Shown here: one piece after another, positions 2,622 through 61,511 of the stretch
How positions within the stretch are numbered: the stretch's first letter is position 1
Layout: each line of letters opens with the position of its first letter
IMG/VR virus record: IMGVR_UViG_3300022723_000207
Location: 64,001-128,000 of that record
DNA: 64,000 nucleotides
DNA from: a virus
Strand: one strand, 5' to 3'
Made by a program: the position numbers and the translations under genes
Notes under the pieces: generated by a model
What the model was told of the DNA's origin: nothing
Databases searched by the model: none
What the model saw: only the letters and a program-made list of their open reading frames with translations

Positions 2622-2658
2622 ATAATTGACCATAAACAGTGTTTGCGTACATATAAGT

Positions 2659-4716: not shown

Positions 4717-4726
4717 AATATAACAC

Positions 4727-5278
4727 ATGGCTATTCCAAAATCAGCGAATGAACGTATTCGTCGTAAGATACGCAAAAAGAAAGTGGAGCCTAAAGGTAG
4801 AGACGATACTGGCAGAGTAGTTGTTAAGAAAACTGCGAATAACGATCCTAACAGGAACAATCGAAATAGAAATAGTAAGAAGAGAAAAGTATCTGAGGAT
4901 TTTTTAAAATGGTATCGTGGTGGTAATGTAGACAACCCTAATCGATTCGAAAAACTGTTAGAAGATCTAATCACTGTTGCTGTGGAAGCTGGTGGTGAGA
5001 TACCCTTTCCGCTGGAATTGTCAAGATTAGTAGAGCTAAAAGAGTCAATCGATGACGAGGTTCCTTTTGTTATTATACAGAACAAAAATGTCCCTGTTAA
5101 GGTGCATGTCTGCCCAATTTGTAATGAAGAAATATTAGAGAAAACGACACACTTGCCAGAAGATCAGAGGGGTAGTGATTATCCTGAATGGAGACATTCT
5201 TGTGGCGGTCGTTTTAGATATCCTCCAGTAAATAAGGATGATATTATTAGGAGGCTTAAAGGTGTCGGAGGAGATTGA
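4727..5278 (+). CDS. Hypothetical protein, basic N-terminus and C-terminal Zn ribbon
   Basis: CPIC...HSCGG. Confidence 0.5.
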   Translation: MAIPKSANERIRRKIRKKKVEPKGRDDTGRVVVKKTANNDPNRNNRNRNSKKRKVSEDFLKWYRGGNVDNPNRFEKLLEDLITVAVEAGGEIPFPLELSRLVELKESIDDEVPFVIIQNKNVPVKVHVCPICNEEILEKTTHLPEDQRGSDYPEWRHSCGGRFRYPPVNKDDIIRRLKGVGGD

Positions 5279-5894
5279 CCCAGAACTTTCTGGTCTTCTT
5301 AATGAAATAGAAGATGCGGAAGGTGATGCTAGCAAGGCCCAGCTTGAAGAGGATATTGATGATCCTCAAAAAACTGAGATGGAAAAAGATGCAGAAGCGT
5401 CTGCTAGCTTAGAGATTGATGCTGAAGAGAATGATATTGATGATTTTAATTCTTTGGAAGATGATTTTGAAGAGGATGGCAATGATGATTTTGAAGCTCA
5501 AGTGGAATATGAAGCTGAGGTAGTAGAAGTAGACCAAGAAAAAGAGCGAATTGAGAAGAATATTATAGGGCTGCTGGATCAGCATTGTGATAGTGCTAAA
5601 GCAATGTTTGAAGAAGCAGAAGTTGACCGTCGTAGGATTGATGATGTGGTTGCCATATTGCTCCCTAAAATAGAGGGTGATGACTATCGCGGGTCGGATA
5701 TTATGGCATTGGCTAATTTAATTCAGACTAAGGCAGACATTAGTAAAAATAGAGCATCTAATATGGATTCTATTGCCAAATTGTTTGCAGCACTGAAGAA
5801 TAATGATCGGATTGCACCGAATGCTGGCGGTTCTGGCGATGATGACCTCTCAAATGAAGAGATAGCTGTGCTATTGGGTAAGAGAGATGCATGA
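5238..5894 (+). CDS. Putative terminase small subunit
   Basis: Acidic N-terminus and helical C-terminus; position upstream of TerL (positional call only). Confidence 0.4.
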   Translation: MILLGGLKVSEEIDPELSGLLNEIEDAEGDASKAQLEEDIDDPQKTEMEKDAEASASLEIDAEENDIDDFNSLEDDFEEDGNDDFEAQVEYEAEVVEVDQEKERIEKNIIGLLDQHCDSAKAMFEEAEVDRRRIDDVVAILLPKIEGDDYRGSDIMALANLIQTKADISKNRASNMDSIAKLFAALKNNDRIAPNAGGSGDDDLSNEEIAVLLGKRDA

Positions 5895-7317
5895 ATTTAT
5901 AGAAAAAGCTGTCGGAGTGCATGGTCATAATTGTGATTATTCTGAAGTCGATTATGTAAATTCATACACTCCAGTTAAGATAATATGCAAGAAACATGGT
6001 TATTTTTTCCAGAAACCATCTGAACATTTAAGGAGTAAGTATTCGTGTCCAGAATGCAGAAAGTATTCGGTTCGTAATCTACTAAAAAGAAGTTATAATG
6101 AATTTTTAGAGAAATCGATAAAATTGTATGGAAGCGATTATGAATATAAAGAAGAATGGTATGGTGATAAGAGGTCTAAAGTATACTGTAAAGTGCATGG
6201 TGTAGTTAGTATTAATAATAGGACGTTTTTAGAGGGAATGGGATGCCCTAAGTGTGGATATGACAGGTCACATAGTAGTAGAGTGCTATCCACGTCTGAA
6301 TTTGTTGATAGGGCCGTTAAGGTTCACGGCCATAAGTACGACTACACCAATGTCGATTACAGTCATAATAAGATAAATGTTGGGATAAGATGTCAAAAAC
6401 ATGGGGTGTTTTACCAAGAGCCGAATAATCATTTAGAGGGCAAAGGGTGCCCCAAGTGTTCTTTCATTGTTACTAAATTTCACGATGATGTGCAGAAGTT
6501 TATTAAGAGTATTGGGATTGGTTTTAAATCAAATGATAGGAAATCAATTGACCCATATGAAATAGATATATTGTGTGATGGCAATATTGGCATTGAGTGT
6601 CATGGATTATTTTGGCATTCGTATGATAAACCAGAGACGAAAGAGGAAAGATTTCGCCATTATGATAAATATGATTTGGCCACCAAAAACGGTGTTAGTC
6701 TTATTCAGATATACGAAAATGAATGGAAGTACAAGAATGAAATAATTAAGTCTGTTTTATCTTGCAAATTTGGCAAAAATGGTACTATTGGTGCTAGAAA
6801 GTGCACAGTTGTTGAGTTGTCATTTAATGACTATCATAAATTTATGGATGCTAATCATATACAGGGTTCCACTAATAATTGTAGCGTTAGATATGGATTA
6901 ATTTATGGTGGTAAAATAGTATCTTGTATTGGTTTTAACAGGCATTTTAGGTATGGGTGGGAGATATCTAGGTTCGCCAGTTTGCTTTGGTTTAATGTTA
7001 TTGGTGGTTTTAGTAAATTATTCAGAAGATTTATAACTGATTATAACCCAAATACTGTATTGACATATTCTGATCGACGTTACTTTAGTGGTGATATATA
7101 TCGTAGTAATGGTTTTATTTACGATGGCGTTACAGCTCCTGGTTTTTGTTATACTGATAAATTTACAGTTTACCCTAGGCAGAAATTTCAGAAACACAAA
7201 TTGCCTGGTATATTAATAAATTTTAATAAATCATTGACTGGCCCTGAGAATATGTTTGTTAATGGGTATAGAAGAATATGGGATGCTGGTAATCATAGGC
7301 TATTATGGCGGGCTTAA
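5887..7317 (+). CDS. Hef-like mobile nuclease: Zn-ribbon repeats, PD-(D/E)xK domain, GNAT-like C-terminus
   Basis: Three IC.KHG.F...P..HL...CP.C-type repeats; EIDI...IECHGLFWH; EISRFAS...TYSDRRY. Confidence 0.7.
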   Translation: MHEFIEKAVGVHGHNCDYSEVDYVNSYTPVKIICKKHGYFFQKPSEHLRSKYSCPECRKYSVRNLLKRSYNEFLEKSIKLYGSDYEYKEEWYGDKRSKVYCKVHGVVSINNRTFLEGMGCPKCGYDRSHSSRVLSTSEFVDRAVKVHGHKYDYTNVDYSHNKINVGIRCQKHGVFYQEPNNHLEGKGCPKCSFIVTKFHDDVQKFIKSIGIGFKSNDRKSIDPYEIDILCDGNIGIECHGLFWHSYDKPETKEERFRHYDKYDLATKNGVSLIQIYENEWKYKNEIIKSVLSCKFGKNGTIGARKCTVVELSFNDYHKFMDANHIQGSTNNCSVRYGLIYGGKIVSCIGFNRHFRYGWEISRFASLLWFNVIGGFSKLFRRFITDYNPNTVLTYSDRRYFSGDIYRSNGFIYDGVTAPGFCYTDKFTVYPRQKFQKHKLPGILINFNKSLTGPENMFVNGYRRIWDAGNHRLLWRA

Positions 7318-9224
7318 CTAAAAATCAGAAAATAATGGTGTTAAGAAGATGCAAGAAGTCTTTTCAGTACTTCTGTGAGAATTTTTGCAAAATTAAACAT
7401 CCTAATGCTGGAATTATTCCATTTAAACTGTTTAAGTATCAGAAGAAGTCTATTAAGGCATTTAAGAAGTATGATAGAGTAATTTATCGTAAATGCCGCC
7501 AGTCTGGAATATCAACACTCACTGGTGCCTATGCACTTTGGTTGGCGATGTTTCATCCGAACCGCAAAGTATTGATAGTATCCAAAAGAGATGAGGATGC
7601 CATTGGATATCTTAATAGAAATGTAAAATTTGTTTTTGAATATCTTCCTGAGTGGATGCATGCTATTTTTGGTGATCCACGATCAGGCAAGTCTAGAAAA
7701 TACGCTCCTCCTAAGACCTATAACGAGCACACCATTGAATTCTTTCATGGTTCGGATATCAAATCATTAACTAGCTCTAAAGATACTTTGCGGTCCAACA
7801 CTGCTTCTCTTGTTATTATCGATGAAGCTGCATTTATTGATTATATGGAAGAGATGTGGACTGCTGGTCAGCCTACCCTGATGCATGGTGGTCGTGTTAT
7901 TGTGATTTCTACTACTAATGGTAAAGGCAATTGGTATCACAATACATGGGAAGATGCGGTTGCTAATACTAACGGGTTTTATCCAATCCAGATTCCGTGG
8001 TGGAATATGGATTGGGTTATTGAATGGTATGATGAATTAGCTGGAAAACGTATTCGTTTAGCACCTTGCGATGGGATCGAAAAGTGCATTTCTAGAGAAG
8101 ATAAGCTGAGATTTGGCAAGTTCAAGAGCCCCTGGCTTGAGCAGCAATATCGTGAGCTACAAGAAAATGGTGAAGCTTGGAAGTTCCGTCAAGAAATTCT
8201 GATGGAATTTATTGGCGCAGGCAATACAGTATTGAGTCAAGAAGCTTTGCTTACTCTAGAGAATCAGATTAATAATGATTATAAAGTGATGAAAAAATCA
8301 ATAGCTTATAACAATGATAATGCTAACATTAATGGTTATATTTTAGATTTTAATGATGGATTACATATTTGGGAAAGACCAGTTAGAAAGACTCAAGATA
8401 TAATTAATGCTATTGGTAGAGTTGTAACACCAGGAAATCCAGGTAATAAATATAGTTTAGGGGCTGACATATCTTCTGGTGAGGCTACTGACTATTCATC
8501 TATTGTCATTATTGATGCTACTGTTAGAAGACAGGTAGCAGAATTGAAAATTAAATGTGATACCTCAGATTTTGCCAAAATGATCGACTTTTTAGGTAGG
8601 TATTATAACAATGCTTTGGTAGTCGTTGAAAATACTGGAATCGGTAAGCCAGTGGCACAGGATCTGAAGAGGATGTATTATTATCCTAATCTGTACTATC
8701 GCAGATTGCCATCTGGCAAGAAAGATAAGAAACCAGGTTTTCCAACTACAAATGCCAGTAAGCCAGATATTGTTAAGGCTTTAACAGATAATATGGGTAT
8801 TGAAGATGATGGTGTTCTATTTAAATCCGCTAGATTGGCTAAAGAAGCTAATTCATTTATTCATCTTGGTGGCGGCAGAGTTGGCAATGAGCCTGGGACC
8901 AATAATAATGATGACTTAATGATCGCTGCTGGCTTGGCATGCATAGGCATCATGGATGCATTAGAGACACCAGACGGTTTGATACCTACTACATCAAGGC
9001 ATGTTGAAGCTCATATGGAAGAGCGAATCGAAATGACTCTTGATGATGCGCTGACTAAGGGTGGTCGAGAGTTGATGTTTCCGATTGCTGTAGGATCTGA
9101 TCCATCTACCATTATGAATGTGGAAGATGAGGTCAACAATTTTATTAATCAGATGGGTGGAGGTAGGACACCAGACCAGAAAGCGGTAATGCCCGCTACC
9201 AGTAGTAAGAAATATTTCCAATGA
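7305..9224 (+). CDS. terL: Terminase large subunit (gp17-like)
   Basis: KCRQSGIST Walker A, IIDEAAF Walker B, STTNG, nuclease motifs GADIS, DYS, NDDL. Confidence 0.93.
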   Translation: MAGLTKNQKIMVLRRCKKSFQYFCENFCKIKHPNAGIIPFKLFKYQKKSIKAFKKYDRVIYRKCRQSGISTLTGAYALWLAMFHPNRKVLIVSKRDEDAIGYLNRNVKFVFEYLPEWMHAIFGDPRSGKSRKYAPPKTYNEHTIEFFHGSDIKSLTSSKDTLRSNTASLVIIDEAAFIDYMEEMWTAGQPTLMHGGRVIVISTTNGKGNWYHNTWEDAVANTNGFYPIQIPWWNMDWVIEWYDELAGKRIRLAPCDGIEKCISREDKLRFGKFKSPWLEQQYRELQENGEAWKFRQEILMEFIGAGNTVLSQEALLTLENQINNDYKVMKKSIAYNNDNANINGYILDFNDGLHIWERPVRKTQDIINAIGRVVTPGNPGNKYSLGADISSGEATDYSSIVIIDATVRRQVAELKIKCDTSDFAKMIDFLGRYYNNALVVVENTGIGKPVAQDLKRMYYYPNLYYRRLPSGKKDKKPGFPTTNASKPDIVKALTDNMGIEDDGVLFKSARLAKEANSFIHLGGGRVGNEPGTNNNDDLMIAAGLACIGIMDALETPDGLIPTTSRHVEAHMEERIEMTLDDALTKGGRELMFPIAVGSDPSTIMNVEDEVNNFINQMGGGRTPDQKAVMPATSSKKYFQ

Positions 9225-10534
9225 TAGACTGGGAAATCACAAGAAGAAAGTTTAATATTAGCACTGTGGATGGCTATAGACCTAAGGTAGTAGTAAGATG
9301 CGATAAGTGTGGCAAAATAAATGATTTAACAATAAGAGTAAAGTCTAAAGTAATAGACAATAATATTAATTGGATTTGCCATAAGTGTGTTGGTAGTCGC
9401 TCAGAAGTTAGATCTAAACTTAGTAAGTCTACGTCTAAAAAATGGGAAAGTCAAGAGTACAAAAATGAAAGAATACTAAATAGTAAACAACTATGGTCTA
9501 GTCCTGAATTTATCCGCAAGCATCAAGAGTCAGTCAATTCACTTGCTAGTAGAAAGAAATGCTCAGAAGCTGCGGTTAATGCTTGGAAGAATGAGCAATA
9601 CAGAGAACGTCATGCAGTTGCTCTAACTGAGCAGTTTAACAAAATACCATCAACAGAAGTGAATGTCATAGCCATATTAGATGGGTTAGGTGTTGACTAT
9701 GTTCACCAATACGCGGTTGGCCCTTACACTTTTGACTTTTTGATTGAAGATTATTTGTTAATTGAAATTAATGGAAATTATTGGCATACTAGGCCAAATG
9801 TCATTAGGAAAGATAGAGCCAAAGAGTCGTATATTTCTCAAATAAACAAGTACAAGTATAAGGTATTGTGGGAATCACAACTATCTGATGTTGATAAAGT
9901 TATATCATTATTTAAACATTGGATCGGTATTGAGGATGTTAAAGCTAAATCTATTATTCTTAAAGATTTAGAATTTAAATTAGTTTTAGAACCAGAATAT
10001 AAGAAGTTTTTTGGGTGTTATCATTATTTGGGAGGGGCTGGAAGGGCTGGTACAGCAGTCGGCGCATATTTGCGAGATGAGCTGGTGTGTTGCGCTTTAT
10101 TTGCTCATCCAACGAGGCGTGAGACTTACCATAGGTTAAAGTTATCCAAAAATCAATGTTTGGAGCTGACAAGACTTGCTACATCGCCCTTTTATACAAA
10201 CAGTAATTTATGTTCATATTCTATGAAGATGTTTATCAAACTAATATATGGAGAATATAGTGATTTAGCCTGCCTGATTGCTTTTTCAGATCCAATTGAG
10301 GGTCATAATGGAACTGTTTATAAGGCTAGCAATTGGCAATTTGATGGATTTACTGCTAGTTCTTATTATTATGTCAATGGCGATGGTTGGAAGATGCATA
10401 AGAAAACTTTATGGAATAAAGCTAAAGGGATGCATTTGAAAGAAAAAGAATTTGCTGATAAGTTTGGCTACAAGATGGTTAGAACACCACCATTACGTAG
10501 GTTTTTGTATTATTTAGGTAAATATAGAGCATGA
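9221..10534 (+). CDS. Vsr/DUF559-like endonuclease fused to a Mom-like acetyltransferase domain
   Basis: Helical W-repeats; FDF..IEINGNYWH; YHYL, ELTRL, FSDP..GHNGTVYKASNW. Confidence 0.7.
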   Translation: MIDWEITRRKFNISTVDGYRPKVVVRCDKCGKINDLTIRVKSKVIDNNINWICHKCVGSRSEVRSKLSKSTSKKWESQEYKNERILNSKQLWSSPEFIRKHQESVNSLASRKKCSEAAVNAWKNEQYRERHAVALTEQFNKIPSTEVNVIAILDGLGVDYVHQYAVGPYTFDFLIEDYLLIEINGNYWHTRPNVIRKDRAKESYISQINKYKYKVLWESQLSDVDKVISLFKHWIGIEDVKAKSIILKDLEFKLVLEPEYKKFFGCYHYLGGAGRAGTAVGAYLRDELVCCALFAHPTRRETYHRLKLSKNQCLELTRLATSPFYTNSNLCSYSMKMFIKLIYGEYSDLACLIAFSDPIEGHNGTVYKASNWQFDGFTASSYYYVNGDGWKMHKKTLWNKAKGMHLKEKEFADKFGYKMVRTPPLRRFLYYLGKYRA

Positions 10535-12213
10535 GTTTTGTATTGTGGGATAAACTGCGTTTGTTTTTCAAGCGTGGCAATGTATATGGGCATGAGAACC
10601 TACTGCAAAACCAGCCTGATTTTGATCGTGTCTTACGTGATAATGGTGAAGTTGATTTCTCCGATCCGAATTTTTTGTTAGAGCAGACAAACGTACAGAT
10701 TAATAGGCTTGAGCGCTATAAAGATTATGATCAGATGGATGAGGTTGGGGAAATTTCCCTGGCTTTAGATATGTACGCTGATGAAGCGTCTTTAAAAGAC
10801 CCAGAGCGTAATCACTCAGTATTTGTGAAGACGGGTAATGCCCGTCTTAAAATGGAAGTTGAAGACTTTTTATATGAGACCTGGAATGTTGATGCGCATA
10901 TCAGGCCGATGACTCGTTACTTGACAAAATATGGTGACTTACCACTTGAGGTTGTTCCAACAGTTGATAGAGATGGTGTTGCTCAGATTAGGCCAATGCA
11001 AGTCTACAATTTTACTAGAGTTGAGACCAAGTATGGTGATTTAGTAGGGTTCTTTTTCCAGGAAGAGGGTGGTGAGCCGACTTATTTGCATCCATGGCAA
11101 GTAGCTCATATGCGCTTGACTTCTTTTGAGCAGATATTTCACCCTTATGGAAGAAGTTTATTGGATGGCGCTAGGCGAGACTTTAGACGCCTGCGGTTAA
11201 TGGAAGATGCTGCTCTTGTTTATCGTTTGGTTAGAGCACCAGAGAAGCGCTTGTTTAGGGTGCCGGTCGGTAATTTAGCCCCTAAGGAGCGTGAGCAATA
11301 TATTCAGATTATTGCTAGACGGTTTAAAAAGCACAAGTTTATTGACCCAACTACTGGGTCTTTAAATGAGAGATATGCTCCGCACATTCAGGATGATGAT
11401 TATTGGGTGCCAGTTACTGGTGACGGTAGTGGTGTTGAGGTAGAAACTTTATCTGGCGCTGAAAACCTTGATGCTATCGCTGATATTGAATATTTCAAAA
11501 AGAAGATGGTCTCTGCGCTCAAGATACCATTCCATAGAGTTGGTTTAGGGGAAGCTTCTGGCGATCCTGGTAAATCTATTGCTTCTCAATCGCCAGAATT
11601 TGCTAAGGCAGTGCAATGGATCCAAGATCAGCTTATAGTTGGTATTAAGAAGATTATTTTGGTTCATCTGGCTTTGAAGAACTACTCTATTGATCAGATG
11701 AAAGATTTCGAAATATCGATGACATCAGCCAGTGCAATTGATGAACTCTATCGTATTGAAACGTGGGCTAGTCGGGTGGATATCATGGGTGGTTTGAAAG
11801 ACACAGGTATGTTCCCTGATGAATGGATTGTTGATCGGTTTACAGATATGACAGATGATGAGCTTGAATTAATGAATATTACCAAGAAGTTGCAGCAGAC
11901 AGAAGAGACAGAGGATACTGGAGAGAAAGATTTCTTTGAATATAATGATGAAGATAAGTATAATAAGTTATTACTAGAACAACGTTTAAATGACGCCAAG
12001 GATCTGAGACAGAGAATTAAGGAAGATCGTAATAAGTATGGATTCCACACGAGCTTTAAGAAGATGATTAATGATAATGAATTTGATGGCTTTGAAGACG
12101 AATCTTATTTGGAAAATGCTGATGCTAAAGAAGCAAAAATTATGGTAGAACAGATCTTAAGAGACGACATCCCGTTCGATACGTCATTAGAGTATGGCGA
12201 TGATCAGGGTTAA
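10531..12213 (+). CDS. Portal protein (gp20-like)
   Basis: LRLMEDAALVYRLVRAPEKR, DDYWVP, DIEYFKKK..SALKIP. Confidence 0.93.
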   Translation: MSFVLWDKLRLFFKRGNVYGHENLLQNQPDFDRVLRDNGEVDFSDPNFLLEQTNVQINRLERYKDYDQMDEVGEISLALDMYADEASLKDPERNHSVFVKTGNARLKMEVEDFLYETWNVDAHIRPMTRYLTKYGDLPLEVVPTVDRDGVAQIRPMQVYNFTRVETKYGDLVGFFFQEEGGEPTYLHPWQVAHMRLTSFEQIFHPYGRSLLDGARRDFRRLRLMEDAALVYRLVRAPEKRLFRVPVGNLAPKEREQYIQIIARRFKKHKFIDPTTGSLNERYAPHIQDDDYWVPVTGDGSGVEVETLSGAENLDAIADIEYFKKKMVSALKIPFHRVGLGEASGDPGKSIASQSPEFAKAVQWIQDQLIVGIKKIILVHLALKNYSIDQMKDFEISMTSASAIDELYRIETWASRVDIMGGLKDTGMFPDEWIVDRFTDMTDDELELMNITKKLQQTEETEDTGEKDFFEYNDEDKYNKLLLEQRLNDAKDLRQRIKEDRNKYGFHTSFKKMINDNEFDGFEDESYLENADAKEAKIMVEQILRDDIPFDTSLEYGDDQG

Positions 12214-38392: not shown

Positions 38393-39182
38393 AATATAAG
38401 ATATGTTAAAGATTGAAAGAATCATAACTGACAATTCTTTCAGTTATGATGATGTTGAATTTATGGATTTCGATGAAGATCAGAAAGCTGCTGGTATTGG
38501 AAAGTATATTACTGATAAGTTTCTTAAGCAGATTGTTATTCGCACCAAGGATGGCGAGACTAAAATTATTACGGACTGGATGGTGGGGGTCCTGCAAATT
38601 CGAAAGATGAAAGCTAGAACCGGTCTTGAAAAGGTGACTAGATTAGTCATCAACGGTGAGATATCTTATGGCCCAGTATTTTTAATACCTATATCGTCTT
38701 ACAAAAGATTGGAAGTACCAAGAGTATTTGAACATCAACTGTCTTTTATTGCAGATGGTTGGTTATATGTGTGTCACCAAGTATCGCTTATCGAAATAAC
38801 TATGTAGCGTATTTTATCTCTACTAGGAGATAAAAATGATCGCAGAACCACAGCGTAAAACAGCGCGTTTGAGCAATATTGCTGAAAATGCCAAAAAGGC
38901 TAAGCAATTTCAGCGTACAGATTATGGTGGTAAAAATCAAATCGAAGCATTATATCAATTTATTGAAGAAGAAGTGGAGTCTAAGGGCGGCAAGCTAGGT
39001 CAAAATACTAAATATTTGGTGGCTAAAGCGTTGCAAAAGCTAGCTGCTAAACAAGTTGCCTCTTGCCGTAAGCGAACTGATGGCCCCCTTAATGAGATTA
39101 TCCGCTTAGCAGGTGGCTGACATAATTTACTAACAATTGTTTTTTTGTATAAACTGATTTAGACGTATTGAAGGAGCGCAGT

Positions 39183-40742
39183 ATGACAACTGCATTGGTT
39201 CAGTCGCTTGTGTATCTTGATAATGGCCAATTGAAAATTGTGCCGGATGCTAAGAAGGCTGTTAAAAAGGCAGTTCTAGCATTCTTGGATATGTCCAGTA
39301 CGGCTACTGGACAGAAGACTCATTACAATAAGCGGTCCGAACAAATCGCAGCCATGGAAGATATTCATAACGCTGTGTTTGAGGTCAATCGTGGATTGTA
39401 CCTCGCCATGCTGGCTTTACCTGGTGTATTGGATATTTCCATCCAGCAAGGTATCACCCGTCTTCTTGGTGACAAGAATGGCGCATCACTTCTATCTTCC
39501 AACGAAGAAGCGGAGCTGATCAAGATTTTGTCTGGTCGTTTGAAGGCTGACCGTCTTTTGAAGATGCTGGGCATGATCTGTGACCAGAAGATTAACCGCC
39601 GTAGCGTTAGGACTTTTATTCTTGTGTCTGTTCTGGCGCACAGGAATCTGCCTTGGTGGGCTGTTAAGTATCGCCGCCATTTGCTGAAGGCTCTCAAGCA
39701 TGCTTGGGGTTCTAAGTACGCTATGGTTGTAGCGCGTGTTCTGGCTGGTGGTATTGACAATGCTACCGCTCGTGATGCAGCGTTGGTTCGCAAGCTAGTT
39801 GATCGTTATGCTGTTCATTCTTCTTGTCCGAAGAGTGATATCTATGAGTCAATCTGCTATGTTTTCGGCAAGGATATTCCGTTCAAGAATGATGTGCTGA
39901 AGGCGCGGGTGGCCGCTCGTGATGACCTGTCTGCTGGTAAGGTTCTTCCTAAGGAAGTACTTGAAGGTATTCGTGGGCGTTTCCATAAGCGGGTAAGTAA
40001 GGATCGCATTCTTGAGTTGACTAAGGACACGATGACTGATAAGCAGAAGCTGCGTAGCCAGCGGTCTGCCAAGAAGGCTGAAGTCGAGATGAAGTTTGAT
40101 GCTTCTAAGCTCGATGCGGTTTCTTTATATGTCCATGCTCTAGAAGAGGGTATGGATGAGGATTCTCGTGCTGCTCTTGATGAAAAGGCTTCTCGGGTTG
40201 CTAGTGGTTTTCCCTTGCGGTATCAGAAGGCGTCGATTGTACTCGATACTTCACTCTCTATGTCTGGAACTGATCACAATAAGAATCGCCCTCTGGCGAT
40301 TTCCTTGGCAATGAAAGACGTACTTGTTGAGGCCAGTGATTCCAGCGAAGTGTTCTGCACTGAAGGGGAGCTTGACCGCAAGGGGCTTATTAAAGCTTCT
40401 GGTGACACCTCTCTTGCTAAGGCTGTGGCCAAAGCATTTATGACTGAACCAGATGTTGTGTTCTTGATTACCGATGGGTATGAGAATGCTCCTGCTGGTC
40501 GCGTCCATGAAGTCATTTCTGCAGCGCGTAGGCTGGGTATCGAAACTCCAGTTTATCAGTTCAGCCCGGTCATGGCTTCAGAAGCTGCTGGTATTCGTAG
40601 TCTTTCTGATCATGTGTCGGCCTTGCCTGTCTCCACACCAGAAGGTATTGGACTGTCATTAATTCGTGTGGCTATTGAGCAGGATACAGAGCGTGGTCTA
40701 CAAGCTCTGTTGAATGCAACTGTACCGCGTTTGTCGGCTTAA
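39183..40742 (+). CDS. Ro60/TROVE-like protein: helical domain plus C-terminal vWA
   Basis: MIDAS motifs VLDTSLSM, GDT, ITDGYEN after a ~350-aa basic helical region; Ro60-like size and layout; Y-like RNAs downstream. Confidence 0.6.
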   Translation: MTTALVQSLVYLDNGQLKIVPDAKKAVKKAVLAFLDMSSTATGQKTHYNKRSEQIAAMEDIHNAVFEVNRGLYLAMLALPGVLDISIQQGITRLLGDKNGASLLSSNEEAELIKILSGRLKADRLLKMLGMICDQKINRRSVRTFILVSVLAHRNLPWWAVKYRRHLLKALKHAWGSKYAMVVARVLAGGIDNATARDAALVRKLVDRYAVHSSCPKSDIYESICYVFGKDIPFKNDVLKARVAARDDLSAGKVLPKEVLEGIRGRFHKRVSKDRILELTKDTMTDKQKLRSQRSAKKAEVEMKFDASKLDAVSLYVHALEEGMDEDSRAALDEKASRVASGFPLRYQKASIVLDTSLSMSGTDHNKNRPLAISLAMKDVLVEASDSSEVFCTEGELDRKGLIKASGDTSLAKAVAKAFMTEPDVVFLITDGYENAPAGRVHEVISAARRLGIETPVYQFSPVMASEAAGIRSLSDHVSALPVSTPEGIGLSLIRVAIEQDTERGLQALLNATVPRLSA

Positions 40743-40752
40743 GGAGGTTGAC

Positions 40753-41772
40753 ATGGCTAAAATCGCAATCTCTAACATCATCCGTGGCTGTCGCCCCGGT
40801 CGTATTCAGTCAGTTGGTTATATGCAGGTTATTCCGCTCATTAGCGATATGACTGATGACCGTTTCGTATCTCCTGAGCAGGGATCTGAGATCTCCACTA
40901 GTGATTATGGATCAATGGTATTCAAGAATAAGACCCAGAATATCATGATTGTTCCATCTGAAGCAACGTATGTCCATAAGGGTCAGAAAGCCCAGGACCA
41001 TGCGATGACTCATGCTGGTTTGGTGAAGAAGAAGGCTCAGAAGACCTTTAGAACTGCGGCTTGCGTGCAGCAGTCACAGGGTGGATATTTGAACATTAAG
41101 GATAGTGGCCACATGTCTATCCTTCCGTTCCCACTTCGTGAGGAAGCCGCTAAGGTTCGTCAGAAGTCTGAATATAGTAAACTCTGGCCAGCCATCACCA
41201 AGCTGAACCAGGAGATGGGGCTTCGTAGTTACGGCCATCTTGAGTACTTCTATGATCACTTCCGTAAGGAATTAGATCACTTCGTAGCTGAGTTCGAGCT
41301 TGTCTCTAATCAGATTGGTGCAATAGTTCTTATCAATGGCAAAATTGTTGGTATTGAGCGCACCCCCAACTACGAATATTGGAAGTCAATCTGGCCAGCT
41401 CTTATTCGTGAGTGCTATGGTAGCTTGGCTATTATTGAGTCTAAGAAGGGGCCACCTAAGGTTCCGGACACTCGTGTTGAGATGTCTGAAGTAAACTCGT
41501 TGCAAGATCTACTTGATGCCGTGGAAGATGTTGAACAGCGTGAGTATGAGAAAGTGAAGAGTGTGGTTCAGAGTGTTTGCGAGACAGAGATCGCTAAGAC
41601 TAAGATTTCTGGCGAAGATGAAGACGGATTCCAGGTTGATTCGCTGAAAAGTGATCGATTTGTTGGTCAGGCTGTTCGTGAAGATGAAAAGATTTTGTAT
41701 GCTTCCATTGTCTGCACTCAAAAGTTCCGCAAGAATGAAGACTGGTACAGCGCTGAACAGTTCAGTATGTAA
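40753..41772 (+). CDS. ARPP-like domain protein, partner of the vWA protein
   Basis: AQDHA, CVQQSQGG, LW..I, F...F....Q.GA...ING...G.E pattern; RBS AAGGAGG overlaps the upstream stop codon. Confidence 0.55.
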   Translation: MAKIAISNIIRGCRPGRIQSVGYMQVIPLISDMTDDRFVSPEQGSEISTSDYGSMVFKNKTQNIMIVPSEATYVHKGQKAQDHAMTHAGLVKKKAQKTFRTAACVQQSQGGYLNIKDSGHMSILPFPLREEAAKVRQKSEYSKLWPAITKLNQEMGLRSYGHLEYFYDHFRKELDHFVAEFELVSNQIGAIVLINGKIVGIERTPNYEYWKSIWPALIRECYGSLAIIESKKGPPKVPDTRVEMSEVNSLQDLLDAVEDVEQREYEKVKSVVQSVCETEIAKTKISGEDEDGFQVDSLKSDRFVGQAVREDEKILYASIVCTQKFRKNEDWYSAEQFSM

Positions 41773-42157: not shown

Positions 42158-43000
42158 ATGCAATTGATATTGAATAGGAATGACCAGTTCTTATCGCAGG
42201 GATATCATTCTCTTAAGAGAACTCTTGAGCAGAGTGGAGAATTTAAAATTGCTAAAGCGCCGTTATTCACTATTCCAGCTAAATATCATCGGAAGGAAGA
42301 AGGCTTTAGTATAGCCAAGGTCAATGGCATATTAATTGCATTTGATGCCAATGGTGGATGTTATAATATTGAATCTATGTATCGTGATGGATTGTTTAAG
42401 ACTGCACTTAAAGATTTGAAATTTATTATTAAAACTCAATTTCATCCGCATCGATTTTGGATTAAATTCGAAGAAGAGACTGGTATTAAGGTGATATCGT
42501 GGATCATGTGGAGTACCCTTAATTTTCCTATGGGATGTTTTCAGTGGGACCCAAGTCGAGATTTTAAGTATATCGCTTCTTGTGCTGGTGGGCCTAACAG
42601 CAATAGAAGATGGGGTAGACCGCCGTATATTCAGTGGTGTCAGCGCGATGGATCGTTTCATAGCCAACGTGTTCATGTTTCTGAATTTGCTCAAATAATT
42701 GAAGAATGCAAATGGGGGTTGATTTTGCAGGGTGGCAATAAACACAATTGTGACGGTAAGAATACTAGAGAAGTCGAGTTCGCTTCATGTGGCATGCCAT
42801 TAGTTTTGAACTATATTCCACACTATGAATATCCATTTGTCCCTAATAAACATTTTTTGTATTTAGAAAAGCCAAATGATCTTGAAAGGCTCAAAACTGA
42901 AGATCCCAGACCCTATGCACGTGCTTCGAAAGAGTTATGGGAGAATTATCTCAAACCACAAGCAGCAGCTAAGCACTTAAAGGGGCTAATTGGTGTCTAA
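42158..43000 (+). CDS. Glycosyltransferase-like protein (GT-B C-terminal motif)
   Basis: KNTREVEFASCGMP..NY; paralog of 53274..54104. Confidence 0.55.
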   Translation: MQLILNRNDQFLSQGYHSLKRTLEQSGEFKIAKAPLFTIPAKYHRKEEGFSIAKVNGILIAFDANGGCYNIESMYRDGLFKTALKDLKFIIKTQFHPHRFWIKFEEETGIKVISWIMWSTLNFPMGCFQWDPSRDFKYIASCAGGPNSNRRWGRPPYIQWCQRDGSFHSQRVHVSEFAQIIEECKWGLILQGGNKHNCDGKNTREVEFASCGMPLVLNYIPHYEYPFVPNKHFLYLEKPNDLERLKTEDPRPYARASKELWENYLKPQAAAKHLKGLIGV

Positions 43001-43508
43001 AGTTTTTGGTATTGGTCTTCCTCGCACTGGTACGGCTAGTTTATGCGAAGCTTTGGTGATATTGGGATACCATGCTAGGCATTATCCTAAATATGCTGAT
43101 AGAGCTAAGCGATTTGATGCTTTGGTTGATACCCCTATATGTAATTGTTTTGAAAACCTGGATAAGGAATATCCGGGGTCTAAATTTATACTCACGATGC
43201 GTAATCCGCTTAAGTGGCTTAAATCGTGTGAAAATGCTTCAAAAAGATTCAAATGGCATAATCTCAAACCTGATGGAAGATGTGGTCCTGAAGTATATCA
43301 GGCTCACATTGACTTGTTTGGCACTACTGCATATGATCAGAATGGATTCTTAGAAGGGTATTTTAAACATACTAAAAGAGTACTTGAATATTTTATGGCC
43401 AGAGAAGATTGGTTGATTTATGAAGTTAGCGAGGGGTGGGCACCTATTTGTGAATTTTTGGGCAAGCCGATACCTAAAGAGCCATTTCCTCATCGCAATA
43501 AGAGCTAG
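42990..43508 (+). CDS. Sulfotransferase-family protein
   Basis: GIGLPRTGT.SL..AL, KFILT.R...W..S, GW.P.CEFL, FPH.N. Confidence 0.8.
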   Translation: MVSKVFGIGLPRTGTASLCEALVILGYHARHYPKYADRAKRFDALVDTPICNCFENLDKEYPGSKFILTMRNPLKWLKSCENASKRFKWHNLKPDGRCGPEVYQAHIDLFGTTAYDQNGFLEGYFKHTKRVLEYFMAREDWLIYEVSEGWAPICEFLGKPIPKEPFPHRNKS

Positions 43509-43514
43509 AAATAC

Positions 43515-43543
43515 TTGACAGAACATTCCCGGATGATAAAAAT
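43515..43543 (+). promoter_or_regulatory. Sigma70-type promoter for the ncRNA array
   Basis: TTGACA-N16-TAAAAA with an extended TG, immediately before unit 0. Confidence 0.55.
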
Positions 43544-43619
43544 GAGATAACTGGAACGCGCAAGTTAATCCCGGTCTGGATTTGACTAACACTTTAACCT
43601 GCAATCATCCAGTTATTCT
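43544..43619 (+). ncRNA. Y-RNA-like unit 0 (conserved stem, no tRNA module)
   Basis: ATAACTGGA/TCCAGTTAT closing stem; GGAAC-N6-GTTAATCCCG ... TTAACC-N7-ATCC. Confidence 0.7.
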
Positions 43620-43772
43620 TTGGCAATCAATAGCAGCAGAAACTAGGACGTCATTTCCGAATTAGCTCACTAGGTAGAGCATCAGTCTAGTAAACTGAGG
43701 GTAGTGGGTTCAATCCCCACATTCGCACCAAACACTGACCTCCATTCATTCTGCTGCGATTAATTGCCAAAG
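43618..43772 (+). ncRNA. Y-RNA-like unit 1 with a non-permuted tRNA-like body (anticodon AGT)
   Basis: Closing stems CTTTGGCAAT/ATTGCCAAAG and GCAGCAGAA/TTCTGCTGC; cloverleaf at 43658-43730 ending ACCA. Confidence 0.75.
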
Positions 43773-43803
43773 CAACATTGACAATTTTATATAAGCTGCC
43801 AAC

Positions 43804-43960
43804 GATTTGCAACAAAGCAAAATCAGGAACTTGAGCGTTAATTCCGATAATTAGCTCTCTGGTAGAGCAATTGCATGCAAAGCAATGGGTACAGGTTCAA
43901 TTCCTGTATTATCACCAAAATTTAACCCTCGTCTATCCTGATTTTACTTTGTTGCAAATC
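43804..43960 (+). ncRNA. Y-RNA-like unit 2 with a non-permuted tRNA-like body (anticodon GCA)
   Basis: ~25-bp closing stem; conserved motif; cloverleaf at 43846-43917 ending ACCA. Confidence 0.78.
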
Positions 43961-43961
43961 A

Positions 43962-44140
43962 ATTGAATGATAAGTATTAGGATTAGGAACTTCTGCGTTA
44001 ATTCCGCATCGGTAAACACAACTGACTTTAATCAGTTCACTGTAGGTTCGAATCCTACCTCCCCCACCATATGGGGGAGTGGTGAAAATCACGCACTACT
44101 TAACCCGGTACTCTCCTAGTCCTAATACTTACCATTCAAT
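43962..44140 (+). ncRNA. Y-RNA-like unit 3 with a tRNA circularly permuted in the D-loop
   Basis: Order: GGTAAACAC, anticodon arm, T arm, CTCCCCCACCA-tat-GGGGGAG, TGGTG; ~27-bp closing stem. Confidence 0.78.
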
Positions 44141-44279
44141 CTCTGGAACTTTTGCGTTAATCCCGATCTTGCATACGGAGCCGGATGCGTAGGTTCGATT
44201 CCTACTTCCCCCACCACTGGGGGAATAGCTCAGCGGTAGAGCGCCGTCGATCATAACTTAACCCATATCCATCCAGAGA
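44140..44279 (+). ncRNA. Y-RNA-like unit 4, YrlA-type topology (T arm, closed acceptor stem, D arm)
   Basis: GTAGG-TTCGATT-CCTAC, TTCCCCCACCA-ct-GGGGGAA, TA-GCTC-AGCGGTA-GAGC; TCTCTGGA/TCCAGAGA closing stem. Confidence 0.8.
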
Positions 44280-44338
44280 CTTTTGCTCCCCATCAGACTT
44301 GCCGACAGGCCCTGGTGGGGTTATTTTTGGTAGCTTGA

Positions 44339-44503: not shown

Positions 44504-44860
44504 ATGAAAACGATAGTAGCTGGATCAAGGTATATTACAGATCCAGCGTTTGTAATTGATGCTGTTGATAAGTCTGATTTTGAGATAACAGAAGTTGTTA
44601 GCGGCGGTCAGCGTGGTGTTGATAAACTTGGAGAAGATTACGCTGAAGCAGCTGGCTTGCCTTTAAAGGTGTTTGAGGCAGATTGGAATAAATATGGTGA
44701 TTCTGCTGGACCTATTCGTAATGGGCAAATGGCGGAATATGCTGACGCAGCCATAATCGTATGGGATGGCAAGAGTCGAGGATCTAAAGATATGATGTTG
44801 AAAGCTTACAAAAATGGCCTTAAAGTGTACGTTTATAATATCGGTGAGCCAAATATATAA
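44504..44860 (+). CDS. SLOG-superfamily protein (YspA/DUF2493-like)
   Basis: IVAGSR, VSGG.RGVD.LGE, AGPIRN..MA, WDGKSRGS..M. Confidence 0.8.
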   Translation: MKTIVAGSRYITDPAFVIDAVDKSDFEITEVVSGGQRGVDKLGEDYAEAAGLPLKVFEADWNKYGDSAGPIRNGQMAEYADAAIIVWDGKSRGSKDMMLKAYKNGLKVYVYNIGEPNI

Positions 44861-54700: not shown

Positions 54701-54774
54701 GATGCTGTGGCGGAATTGGCTAACGCTCTTGATTGCAAATCAAGTATTTGTGGGTTCGAGTCCCACCGGCATCT
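54701..54774 (+). tRNA. tRNA-Cys(GCA)
   Basis: Cloverleaf, U discriminator. Confidence 0.88.
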
Positions 54775-57192: not shown

Positions 57193-57483
57193 GCGCTCTT
57201 AGCTCAATGGTAGAGCATCTGACTTTCAAAGGAAGCCCTGCATGGAAACATGTAGGTGAAAATCGGGTGAATTCAGGGAACCCTCAGCGCGTAATGGCGG
57301 TGGCAATCCTGAGCCAAGCCTCATAGAGGAAGGTGCAGAGACTAGGTGATTACACCACTAGCGCCCGACACCCTAACGTAAAGACGAGGGTGATGAGATA
57401 GTCCAGACCACAAACCGTAAGGGTAGTGAAAACTATAGTGGTAAGTAATCAGAGGGTTGAAGGTTCGAGTCCTTCAGGGCGCA
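57193..57483 (+). tRNA. tRNA-Lys(TTT) split by a group I intron
   Basis: Exons 57193-57226 and 57446-57483 join to give TCTGA-CTTTTAA-TCAGA in a full cloverleaf. Confidence 0.9.
57227..57445 (+). mobile_element. Group I intron (IC3-like, 219 nt)
   Basis: P AATTCAGGGAA, Q AATCCTGAGC, R GTGCAGAGACT, S GATAGTCC; P1 CTTT^C-AAA-GGAAG with a U.G pair; terminal G. Confidence 0.9.
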
Positions 57484-58167: not shown

Positions 58168-58307
58168 GGAAGAGTGGCAGAAAGGCATTGCGACAGGTTG
58201 ACCGCCTATCAAGATATGACCCAATAGGGATCGATCACCCAATTTGGTGGATGTACTGCTGGTAATTGATCATTACTGGCGTGGAGGTTCGAATCCTTCC
58301 TTTTCCT
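58168..58307 (+). ncRNA. Class II-type tRNA scaffold with a long insertion in the anticodon region
   Basis: GGAAGAG/CTTTTCC acceptor, D arm, variable hairpin, GGAGG-TTCGAAT-CCTTC. Confidence 0.55.
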
Positions 58308-61439: not shown

Positions 61440-61511
61440 TGCCCAATAGCTCAATGGAAGAGCGATTGCCTCCGGAGCAGTAGTCCGCAAGTAATCTTGC
61501 TTGGGCAGCCA
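61440..61511 (+). tRNA. Atypical tRNA-Arg(CCG) with a 4-nt T loop
   Basis: All stems pair; T arm GCAAG-TAAT-CTTGC; CCA. Confidence 0.65.

What the first reader, a model, noticed from the sequence alone, without database searches (positions are those of the whole stretch)
43544..44279. Tandem array of five Y-RNA-like ncRNAs grafting tRNA bodies in three topologies onto one conserved stem
Seen: five units lie nearly back to back, each closed by its own long terminal stem of unrelated sequence. All carry GGAAC-N6-GTTAAT(T/C)CCG on the 5' strand and TTAACC-N7-(A/C)TCC on the 3' strand. The cargo differs: none (unit 0); an intact cloverleaf with internal ACCA (unit 1 anticodon AGT, unit 2 GCA); a tRNA opened in the D-loop (unit 3); a tRNA opened at the anticodon with T arm before D arm (unit 4). 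Established: bacterial YrlA Y RNAs have the unit-4 topology and bind Ro60 through a terminal stem. Inference: a new Y-RNA class in which a constant protein-binding handle displays interchangeable tRNA mimics, either as decoys for host anticodon nucleases or as adaptors for RNA repair and decay. The handle does not match the YrlA GNCGAA motif as I recall it.
Basis: partly seen in the sequence, partly recalled or inferred. Interest (0 to 1): 0.95.

Follow-up and report, generated by a model that had tools for sequence, protein, structure and literature searches.

The report
Ro60-like RNP with tRNA-mimic RNAs
A huge uncultured phage encodes five back-to-back small RNAs that share one conserved stem (a "handle") but display tRNA look-alikes wired in different ways; the same RNAs sit beside a very diverged Ro60-type ring protein and an ARPP-1-like partner in phages and bacteria, which points to an undescribed branch of the Ro60/Y-RNA machines.

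Summary
Five structured units lie at 43546-44280 on the + strand, between a promoter-like and a terminator-like site. All five match a covariance model of a two-helix handle (26.6-47.7 bits). u0 carries only a small hairpin. u1 and u2 carry tRNA-like cloverleaves in native order. u4 has the YrlA-like order T arm, closed acceptor, D arm. u3 is permuted too, but its break point is ambiguous.

The 519-524-aa protein at 39183-40742 hits no Pfam TROVE model, yet its predicted fold matches Ro60 over ring and vWA domain (Z 19). Across 69 phage and bacterial sources the handle model gave 129 hits. All were on the gene's strand, mostly within 500 nt upstream, and 56 of 69 sources had at least one. In whole bacterial genomes the only hits lay next to this gene. 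An ARPP-1-like gene follows the Ro60-like gene in about 75 loci, and no third gene recurs.

Best reading: a new, widespread Ro60/Y-RNA-type module. Binding, RNA ends and function are untested. The handle is not in Rfam 15, and I found no paper describing it. This scan had already reached the same reading for the same module on other genomes.

The parts
39183..40742 (+). Ro60-like ring protein (helical TROVE-like ring plus C-terminal MIDAS vWA domain), 519 aa from 39183 (524 aa if read from the TTG at 39168)
   Evidence: No Pfam family above cut-off, only weak vWA hits. AF2 model has pLDDT 89.8. The best Foldseek hits are Ro60 structures (10 at E<=1.3e-4). VIA Z is 19.0 over 406-410 residues of 1yvr/1yvp, spanning ring and vWA. 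Invariant D360-x-S362-x-S364 and D436.
40714..41772 (+). ARPP-1-like protein gene, overlapping the end of the Ro60-like gene by 29 nt
   Evidence: PF20208 ARPP-1, E 4.9e-31. Found directly downstream of the Ro60-like gene in about 75 loci. Invariant Q94, H96, C117, E195, E215. No solved structural relative, best Z 4.3.
43515..43543 (+). Promoter-like site (TTGACA-17-AAAAAT) just upstream of unit 0
   Evidence: Consensus scan, 10 of 12 matches. A consensus match only.
43546..43617 (+). Unit 0: handle with a minimal 25-nt insert (3-bp hairpin)
   Evidence: R1 41.6 bits, R2 36.1 bits. RNAfold reproduces outer stem, internal loop and inner helix.
43618..43772 (+). Unit 1: variant handle (GAAAC...GTCAT / TGACC...ATTC) carrying a tRNA-like cloverleaf in native order (43656-43729, anticodon AGT)
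   Evidence: R2 45.4 bits. ARAGORN and Rfam tRNA 54.8 bits. Acceptor has a C2.C71 mismatch and is followed by C+CAA.
43804..43960 (+). Unit 2: handle carrying a tRNA-like cloverleaf in native order (43845-43916, anticodon GCA)
   Evidence: R2 47.7 bits. Rfam tRNA 56.3 bits. C1.A72 mismatch and discriminator C, whereas the phage's own tRNA-Cys at 54701 has a fully paired stem and discriminator T.
43962..44140 (+). Unit 3: handle carrying a permuted tRNA-like body: anticodon-like arm with a 6-nt loop CUUUAA, T arm, then a 7-bp acceptor hairpin closed by ACCA+TAT. The break is either in the D loop or at the anticodon position as in YrlA.
   Evidence: R2 26.6 bits. Sequence register read. The two models differ by 2.3 kcal/mol. 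T arm and acceptor are nearly identical to those of unit 4.
44139..44280 (+). Unit 4: handle carrying a YrlA-type permuted tRNA-like body: variable-arm-like hairpin, T arm, 7-bp acceptor hairpin closed by ACCA+CT, D arm
   Evidence: R2 36.2 bits. Partial YrlA match at 44188-44242, 29.9 bits, model positions 30-81. The same 55-57 nt are 86-88% identical to a YrlA-like RNA of Klebsiella phages.
44298..44329 (+). Terminator-like hairpin with a T run after unit 4
   Evidence: Consensus scan. A consensus match only.

Best explanation
The five units are Y-RNA-type noncoding RNAs. They belong to a previously undescribed three-part module: handle RNA(s), a Ro60-fold ring/vWA protein (39183-40742) and an ARPP-1-like protein (40714-41772).

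Shown:
- Each RNA closes into a long outer stem. This is followed by a conserved internal loop (5' A-C-U, 3' C-A-M-C-Y-U) and an 8-position inner helix (2-3 bp, usually a 1x1 mismatch, then G-U-Y-A-N/N-U-R-A-C). A second conserved loop (5' U-W-C-A/C-G) follows, and the variable cargo is mounted on it.
- The RNAs are strictly linked to the gene pair.

Inferred by analogy with Ro60/Y RNA:
- The invariant loop nucleotides and inner helix are the docking site for the Ro60-like ring.
- The cargo is displayed to recruit or occupy proteins that recognise tRNA shape. In units with native order the handle extends the acceptor end, which leaves the elbow and the anticodon arm exposed. In permuted units the acceptor/T minihelix and the elbow are exposed.
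- The phage transcribes five variants as one array, probably as part of tRNA-centred conflict with its host (surveillance, repair or decoy).

The role of the ARPP-1-like partner, a probable enzyme with invariant Cys, His and Gln, is unknown.
For: Protein fold:
- AF2 model pLDDT 89.8.
- The best Foldseek hits are Ro60 structures (10 at E<=1.3e-4), including a phage Ro60.
- VIA Z is 19.0, rmsd 4.5-4.7 A, over 406-410 aligned residues covering ring and vWA. Chains that match the vWA domain alone reach Z 12.6 or less.

RNA structure:
- In a MAFFT alignment of 13 minimal units, 14 of 16 pairs have changes on both sides. Cells paired are 79.8% against 60.5% in shuffles, 0 of 500 shuffles reach the score, and slid controls give 30-52%.
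- The same holds on 59 model-aligned units. That alignment is fitted to the model.
- Near-invariant single-stranded nucleotides in 129 units: A 126/128, C 129/129, U 119/129, then U 128/129, C 122/129, G 128/129.

Linkage:
- Model R2 gave 129 hits in 1.06 Mb searched on both strands, all on the gene's strand.
- 56 of 69 sources have at least one unit. 117 units lie upstream of the gene, mostly within 500 nt, and 12 lie downstream.
- In the phage record the only hits are in the array.
- In complete bacterial genomes of 3.8-10.8 Mb, 4 of 5 had hits and all lay beside the gene; the fifth had none in that search.
- Among 121 genomes of one order, the RNA was found in 2. Those are exactly the 2 with a strong protein match. 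A third genome has a distant gene pair and carries variant units that I read by eye.
- The ARPP-1-like gene follows the Ro60-like gene in about 75 loci, and no third gene recurs.

Not ordinary tRNAs:
- 52 of 129 units showed none of the tRNA elements my motif scan looks for.
- 39 of 41 cloverleaf-type cargos have 1-3 unpaired acceptor positions. Their 5' acceptor strand is the conserved handle motif. The phage's own tRNAs are mostly fully paired and followed by CCA.
- Several anticodon loops have non-canonical length.
- In 10 RNAs that are 94% identical on average, the anticodon loop varies at 4 of 7 positions against 17 of 112 elsewhere (Fisher p = 0.018).

Precedent: Y RNAs are encoded within 4 kb of Ro60 on the same strand, in sets of two or more, and carry tRNA-like modules (PMC4201824). 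A phage Ro60 binds two phage-encoded Y-like RNAs (PMC12135203).
Against: - There is no direct evidence of binding, expression, RNA ends or processing.
- The protein resembles Ro60 in fold only. No family member reaches Pfam TROVE or vWA_Ro60 even at E<=1, and helical repeat proteins can give inflated Z values.
- The handle lacks the known Ro-binding motifs (GGUCCGA, GNCGAAN0-1G).
- In this window the array lies 2.8 kb downstream of the gene pair. Glycosyltransferase-like and sulfotransferase genes lie between, and the array has its own promoter-like site. Linkage here is therefore looser than in most loci.
- u1 and u2 score as good tRNAs (about 55 bits), and the phage units encode ACCA. Cleavage by RNase P or RNase Z cannot be excluded.
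- 13 of 69 loci gave no RNA hit.
Confidence: 0.75

Rival explanations
1. Caged or precursor tRNAs. The handle is only a leader-trailer duplex. RNase P, RNase Z or RNase III remove it to release working tRNAs (Thr-AGT, Cys-GCA). The permuted units end up as two-piece tRNA-like molecules with a real CCA end.
For: u1 and u2 reach 54.8 and 56.3 bits with the tRNA model. ACCA is encoded in u1-u4. The 7-bp acceptor hairpins of u3 and u4 resemble M. smegmatis YrlA, which RNase P cleaves and which receives CCA in vivo (PMC4201824). The array sits among phage tRNA genes.
Against: 52 of 129 units showed none of the tRNA elements scanned for. 39 of 41 cloverleaf cargos have mismatched acceptor stems whose 5' strand is fixed by the handle motif. 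u2 has discriminator C, unlike the phage's own tRNA-Cys, which has T. Several anticodon loops have 6 or 8 nt or a stop anticodon. A leader-trailer duplex would not need invariant loop nucleotides, nor strict linkage to one gene pair in bacteria that have full tRNA sets.
Confidence: 0.08
2. Cis-regulatory leader. The units are structured 5' UTR elements of the Ro60-like/ARPP operon, for example autoregulatory protein-binding sites or tRNA-sensing switches, and not trans-acting RNAs.
For: 117 of 129 units lie upstream of the gene on the same strand, often 60-300 nt from its start.
Against: In this window, L005 and L036 the array lies downstream of both genes. Here it lies 2.8 kb away, with its own promoter-like and terminator-like sites. 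Arrays of up to five different units are unlike known leaders. Canonical Y RNAs are also encoded just upstream of rsr and cut from a common precursor (PMC4201824), so position does not separate the two readings.
Confidence: 0.07
3. The handle is the substrate or docking site of the ARPP-1-like enzyme rather than of the Ro60-like ring. The ring then binds another part of the RNA, or a different RNA such as a damaged tRNA end in its central hole.
For: The ARPP-1-like gene is linked to the RNAs as strictly as the ring protein is. It has invariant Cys, His, Gln and Glu, which suggests catalysis. The authors who defined ARPP proposed action on ribose moieties (PMC9503650).
Against: There is no precedent for RNA binding by ARPP. 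Ro60 proteins bind a conserved stem of their Y RNAs in every studied case (PMC4201824, PMC12135203).
Confidence: 0.1

Closest known systems
Bacterial Ro60 (Rsr) with YrlA/YrlB Y RNAs (Salmonella, M. smegmatis, mycobacteriophages; Rfam RF02553; PMC4201824)
   Same: A ring plus vWA protein is encoded next to, and on the same strand as, two or more RNAs of about 70-150 nt. Each RNA is closed by a 5'/3' stem and carries a tRNA-like module. u4 has the same order of T arm, closed acceptor stem and D arm. A 7-bp acceptor hairpin also occurs in M. smegmatis YrlA.
   Different: The protein hits no TROVE model. The handle has other invariant nucleotides and lacks GNCGAAN0-1G. No unit reaches the YrlA gathering score. 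The commonest cargo here is a tRNA-like body in native order, joined to the handle through its acceptor end, so the anticodon arm is kept and exposed. An ARPP-1-like gene is an obligate partner, and there is no rtcBA.
Thermus phage phiLo Ro60 with Yrl1 and Yrl2 (PDB 9KOP, 9L5Y; PMC12135203)
   Same: A phage-encoded Ro60-fold protein with phage-encoded Y-like RNAs nearby. The window protein aligns to 9kop and 9l5y at Z 17.0 and 16.6.
   Different: The phiLo RNAs carry the CGAA motif and are not described as tRNA mimics in several topologies. No ARPP partner is reported. Sequence identity to the window protein is 13%.
DUF2828/DUF7788 proteins with sub-threshold YrlA-like RNAs in Klebsiella phages (for example KP2025, PP919962.1)
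   Same: A vWA protein with a weak vWA_Ro60 hit is followed by two YrlA-like RNAs (40.1 and 34.3 bits). One has a T-acceptor-D module 86-88% identical to that of u4.
   Different: The stem differs and model R2 finds nothing there. The protein shows no detectable sequence relation to the window family beyond the MIDAS motif. There is no ARPP gene.
Circularly permuted tRNA genes and two-piece (permuted) tmRNA
   Same: In u3 and u4 the 3' acceptor strand with ACCA precedes the 5' acceptor strand. There are weak partial matches to the permuted tmRNA model (22.1 and 19.3 bits).
   Different: These scores are far below the gathering score of 47. ARAGORN finds no tmRNA or tag frame. The units are closed by the family handle, not by the processing motifs of permuted tRNAs.
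ARPP proteins in systems centred on ADP-ribosylglycohydrolase (ARG) (PMC9503650)
   Same: The partner protein belongs to Pfam ARPP-1. That paper also notes vWA proteins in some ARPP neighbourhoods.
   Different: None of the 80 loci clustered here had a recurrent ARG, rhodanese-phosphatase or transcription-factor neighbour. The paper mentions neither a Ro60-like ring nor associated RNAs.

Membership tests
Y RNA (functional class) | RNA of about 80-130 nt whose 5' and 3' ends pair into a long stem with a conserved internal loop or bulge | tested here: met
   Units are 63-198 nt. The outer stem and inner helix covary.
Y RNA (functional class) | Encoded close to a Ro60 gene and on the same strand | tested here: met
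   All 129 units are on the gene's strand and 117 lie just upstream. In the window the array lies 2.8-3.4 kb downstream. The protein is Ro60-like by fold only.
Y RNA (functional class) | Bound by the Ro60 protein | not testable with these tools
This needs RIP or EMSA.
Y RNA (functional class) | Known Ro-binding sequence (GGUCCGA in animals, GNCGAAN0-1G in bacteria) | tested here: not met
   The consensus of 129 units is R-G-R-A-C-U-N5-G-U-Y-A-N-U-W-C-A-G. The YrlA model aligns only to the tRNA-like part of u4.
YrlA (Rfam RF02553) | Match at or above the gathering score of 69 bits | tested here: not met
   The only match is u4 at 29.9 bits, model positions 30-81 of 114. No YrlA hit appeared in 9 related loci at gathering threshold.
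YrlA (Rfam RF02553) | tRNA-like domain in the order (V), T arm, closed acceptor-like stem, D arm | tested here: met
   Met for u4 and for 4 other units of the family, possibly for u3. Not met for u0, u1 and u2.
Ro60 / TROVE protein | Sequence match to Pfam TROVE (PF05731) or vWA_Ro60 (PF25045) | tested here: not met
   0 of 38 family members match at E<=1. The phage record has no TROVE match, while the control genomes do.
Ro60 / TROVE protein | Helical-repeat ring closed by a C-terminal vWA domain | tested here: met
   Z 19.0 and 406-410 aligned residues against 1yvr and 1yvp. The 9 best entries are all Ro60 or TROVE.
Ro60 / TROVE protein | MIDAS motif in the vWA domain | tested here: met
   D360, S362, S364 and D436 are invariant and T414 is nearly invariant in 38 sequences.
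tRNA gene (u1, u2) | Cloverleaf that scores above the Rfam tRNA gathering score | tested here: met
   54.8 and 56.3 bits against 29. ARAGORN calls Thr-AGT and Cys-GCA.
tRNA gene (u1, u2) | Fully paired 7-bp acceptor stem with discriminator and CCA, as in the phage's other tRNAs | tested here: not met
   u1 has C2.C71 and u2 has C1.A72. Both are followed by C+CAA. Most of the other tRNA genes in the window are fully paired and followed by CCA.
Permuted (two-piece) tmRNA | Match at the gathering score, and a tag reading frame | tested here: not met
   22.1 and 19.3 bits against 47. ARAGORN reports no tmRNA.
ARPP-1 (PF20208), for 40714-41772 | Match above the curated cut-off | tested here: met
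   108.6 bits against 27, E 4.9e-31.

The most novel reading that the evidence does not exclude
The module is a programmable platform for displaying tRNA mimics in phage-host conflict. The Ro60-like ring holds a constant handle. Recombination swaps or permutes the tRNA body, and the anticodon loop diversifies. An array can then bait or block several tRNA-targeting factors at once, such as anticodon nucleases, tRNA-modifying toxins or repair enzymes. The ARPP-1-like partner would be a new RNA-acting enzyme that works on the captured RNA or protein.
Probability: 0.2. Interest if true: 0.9.

Novelty: new variant of a known kind. Interest (0 to 1): 0.8.

Why it matters
Ro60 and its Y RNAs are conserved from bacteria to humans, yet the purpose of the tRNA-like module of bacterial Y RNAs is still open. 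This module matters for several reasons:

- It is a second, sequence-invisible Ro60-type family. A profile search found 733 protein clusters at 50% identity with E<=0.001.
- It has its own RNA class.
- The tRNA mimic is mounted in different orientations.
- An always-coupled candidate enzyme comes with it.
- The module is compact, with two genes and 1-5 RNAs, and patchily distributed. It occurs in cultured bacteria (Stieleria, Rhodopirellula, Novipirellula, Yinghuangia).

The question of what the tRNA-like module recruits becomes directly testable here by pull-down and structure determination. The finding also shows that searches for Y RNAs that start from TROVE annotation miss whole branches.

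Tried and rejected
- **Rfam 15.** At gathering and at E-value thresholds, nothing in the array matches except tRNA, a partial YrlA hit and weak permuted-tmRNA hits. Nine related loci gave only tRNA (plus one unrelated SAM riboswitch).
- **blastn of the array against GenBank phages.** Only tRNA-Thr fragments and the T-acceptor-D module of Klebsiella phages matched.
- **Ro60-like protein by sequence.** Pfam, NCBIfam, PHROGs and PDB sequence searches (single sequence and profile) gave nothing useful.
- **ARPP-1-like protein by fold.** Foldseek gave no hit at E<=0.001 and VIA wide gave a best Z of 4.3.
- **A link to ARG or RNA-repair genes.** Clustering all flanking ORFs of 80 loci found no recurrent neighbour apart from the gene pair. 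One Stieleria locus has Band-7, an EndoV-like gene and a HIT-PLD-helicase nearby, but this is not general.
- **First regex and pairing descriptor.** It was too permissive: 2371 hits in the window. I replaced it with covariance models.
- **BHB-type splicing motif, ribozyme, or repeat element as readings of the handle.** I considered and dropped these because of the loop geometry, the small size, the covariation and the strict gene linkage.
- **Papers not held.** Burroughs and Aravind 2016 (NAR) and the 2020 Annual Review on bacterial Ro60 could not be read. I cannot exclude that they mention this family.
- **Literature searches.** They found no description of this RNA or protein family.
Full report
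**What is in the window.** The window is part of a 153-kb IMG/VR phage record estimated at 42% complete, so the phage is probably very large. Between 43546 and 44280 on the + strand lie five units placed nearly end to end. RNAfold closes each one with its own long terminal stem.

The motif GGAAC-N6-GTTAATYCCG is exact in u0, u2, u3 and u4. It occurs nowhere else in the record and never on the other strand. u1 has GAAAC-N6-GTCATTTCCG on the 5' side and TGACC-N7-ATTC on the 3' side. These differences are compensatory in both helices, so u1 itself is evidence for the structure.

A promoter-like site (43515-43543) precedes u0 and a terminator-like hairpin (44298-44329) follows u4. The array therefore looks like one transcription unit. 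These two sites are consensus matches only.

**The cargos.**
- u0 carries a 25-nt insert with a 3-bp hairpin.
- u1 and u2 carry cloverleaves in native order. ARAGORN calls them Thr-AGT and Cys-GCA, and the Rfam tRNA model gives 54.8 and 56.3 bits.
- Their acceptor ends are imperfect: C2.C71 in u1 and C1.A72 in u2. Both are followed by C+CAA. The phage's other tRNA genes are mostly fully paired and followed by CCA. Its own tRNA-Cys at 54701 has discriminator T, whereas u2 has C.
- u4 reads variable-arm-like hairpin, T arm, 7-bp acceptor hairpin closed by ACCA+CT, D arm. This is the YrlA order, and the YrlA model aligns to just that part (29.9 bits, gathering score 69).
- u3 shares an almost identical T arm and acceptor hairpin with u4 (closed by ACCA+TAT). 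It keeps an anticodon-like arm with a 6-nt loop. A local GUGA/UCAC hairpin, which would make u3 YrlA-like, is slightly better by energy (-55.8 against -53.5 kcal/mol). I leave this open.

**The neighbouring protein is a hidden Ro60.**
- The ORF at 39183-40742 has no Pfam, NCBIfam or PHROG family and only weak vWA hits at its C-terminus.
- It belongs to a family of proteins of about 525 aa that carry no Pfam annotation. A profile search of 1.84 billion representatives found 733 clusters at E<=0.001 and 405 at E<=1e-30.
- An AlphaFold model built on 38 homologs has pLDDT 89.8.
- The best Foldseek matches in the PDB are Ro60 structures (10 at E<=1.3e-4), including the Ro60 of Thermus phage phiLo.
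- VIA-align gives Z 19.0 over 406-410 residues that span the helical ring and the vWA domain. Chains that match the vWA domain alone reach Z 12.6 or less.
- The MIDAS residues are invariant.
- No member matches Pfam TROVE or vWA_Ro60 even at E<=1. The phage record has no TROVE match although the control genomes do.
- The protein is therefore Ro60-like by fold and not by any sequence model. This would explain why surveys that started from TROVE annotation (PMC4201824) did not see it.

**The handle is a real, covarying structure.** I fetched 31 viral and 48 bacterial loci that encode homologs and saw handle-like motifs next to the gene in many of them.
- *Covariation.* In a MAFFT alignment of 13 minimal units, 14 of 16 proposed pairs have changes on both sides. 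Cells paired are 79.8% against 60.5% in shuffles, 0 of 500 shuffles reach the observed score, and slid controls give 30-52%.
- *Models.* Model R1 was built from these units. Model R2, rebuilt from 59 hits, found 129 units in 69 sources. This was 1.06 Mb searched on both strands, and all hits were on the strand of the gene.
- *Window units.* All five are hit: 36.1, 45.4, 47.7, 26.6 and 36.2 bits.
- *Consensus of 129 units.* It reads outer stem, A-C-U, a short helix with a usual 1x1 mismatch, G-U-Y-A-N, U-W-C-A-G, cargo, an A-rich segment, N-U-R-A-C, C-A-M-C-Y-U, outer stem. Several single-stranded positions are invariant in 119-129 of 129 units. This pattern fits a sequence-specific protein site.

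**Linkage.**
- 56 of 69 sources have at least one unit, in arrays of 1-5. 117 units lie upstream of the gene, mostly within 500 nt. 12 lie downstream, in the window, L005 and L036.
- In the phage record the model finds only the array.
- In five complete bacterial genomes of 3.8-10.8 Mb, every hit lies beside the gene. One of the five gave no hit in that filtered search.
- In a sample of 121 genomes of one order, the RNA model hit two genomes. The protein profile hit the same two strongly, plus one distant pair. That third locus also has variant handle units, one permuted and one native, which I read by eye.
- An ARPP-1-like gene (PF20208) follows the Ro60-like gene in about 75 loci. Clustering all flanking ORFs showed no third recurrent gene.
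- The unit of inheritance is therefore RNA(s), a Ro60-like gene and an ARPP-1-like gene, dropped into varied contexts. That pattern is typical of mobile conflict modules.

**The cargo is modular and does not behave like a decoding tRNA.**
- Of 129 units, 41 are called tRNA by ARAGORN and 7 more have D before T. Five are permuted with T before D, 21 have only a T arm, 3 only a D arm, and 52 have none of these elements.
- In the cloverleaf type the tRNA-like body starts at a fixed distance from the handle. 39 of 41 acceptor stems have 1-3 unpaired positions, and the 5' acceptor strand is the conserved handle motif.
- The called anticodons cover many amino acids. They also include a stop anticodon and loops of odd length.
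- In 10 Pirellulaceae RNAs that are 94% identical on average, 4 of 7 anticodon-loop positions vary against 17 of 112 elsewhere (Fisher p = 0.018). The anticodons are CTT seven times, TTT once and TAG twice. This is suggestive only.
- Geometry follows from the wiring. Native-order units extend the acceptor end into the handle and leave the elbow and anticodon arm free. YrlA-type units replace the anticodon stem and show the acceptor/T minihelix. This window's array offers both faces.

**Comparison with what is known.** The closest system is bacterial Rsr with YrlA and YrlB (PMC4201824), followed by phage phiLo Ro60 with Yrl1 and Yrl2 (PMC12135203).
- *Shared.* The protein fold, the gene-RNA linkage on one strand, several RNAs per locus, and tRNA mimicry.
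- *Different.* No TROVE sequence signal, another handle, no Rfam family, native-order tRNA-like cargos as the main type, and the obligate ARPP-1-like partner.
- *ARPP.* It was described in ADP-ribose-centred systems, with vWA proteins noted nearby, but without any Ro60-like ring or RNA (PMC9503650). Its model has no solved relative.
- *GenBank phages.* Among phage records only one uncultured 462-kb phage encodes the protein.
- *A parallel case.* Klebsiella phages encode a DUF2828/DUF7788 vWA protein followed by two sub-threshold YrlA-like RNAs. One of these has a T-acceptor-D module 86-88% identical to that of u4, on a different stem. This fits the idea that tRNA-like modules move between handle classes.

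**Status and limits.** Nothing here shows binding, expression, RNA ends or function. Two reviews that might mention the family are not held. My literature searches found no description of it. Earlier follow-ups of this scan reached the same reading for the same module on other genomes. I saw those notes only after my own tests, and they are not independent evidence.

**Verdict.** This is a new variant of a known kind, a Ro60/Y-RNA-type RNP. Confidence is 0.75 that these are Y-type RNAs of the Ro60-like/ARPP module.

Noticed in passing
window 57215-57427 and 58168-58307: A group I intron match (84.8 bits) lies inside the tRNA-rich region. A tRNA model match nearby spans 140 nt (32.6 bits), which suggests an interrupted tRNA gene.
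   Followed up: no
window 61440-61508: Rfam finds a tRNA here (49.5 bits) that ARAGORN did not report.
   Followed up: no
L088 (Klebsiella phage KP2025, PP919962.1) 1256-3222: A DUF2828/DUF7788 protein with a weak vWA_Ro60 hit is followed by two sub-threshold YrlA matches (40.1 and 34.3 bits) that are not annotated in the record. One has a T-acceptor-D module 86-88% identical to that of window u4. This may be another Ro60-like/Y-RNA pair, in a cultured phage.
   Followed up: partly
L005 13505-13577; L088 767-838: tRNAs with anticodon CTA (amber suppressor type) lie next to the Y-like RNAs in two phages (read by eye; tRNA-Sup-CTA annotation). One family unit in L028 is called with the stop anticodon TTA.
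   Followed up: no
window 44504-44860: A YAcAr/SLOG-family protein (PF10686, E 1.1e-12) is encoded just downstream of the array and the tRNA-Met gene. Homologs occur in two related loci, L069 and L012.
   Followed up: no
window 42158-43508: Glycosyltransferase-like and sulfotransferase genes lie between the ARPP-1-like gene and the RNA array. In L005 the array follows the ARPP gene directly.
   Followed up: no
L040 (Stieleria magnilauensis) 1810-11907: The bacterial cassette is flanked by a DDE transposase, a Band-7/SPFH protein, an endonuclease V-like protein and a 777-aa HIT-PLD-helicase fusion. This context is not shared by other loci.
   Followed up: partly
L010 5783-15604: In this phage the Ro60-like gene and its handle units sit inside an array of about 40 tRNA genes.
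   Followed up: no
L089 (G072:C23) 2000-2110: Tandem copies of about 15 nt (AAATTCCGAAGCGTGC) lie just upstream of the variant handle units of a distant member of the gene pair.
   Followed up: no
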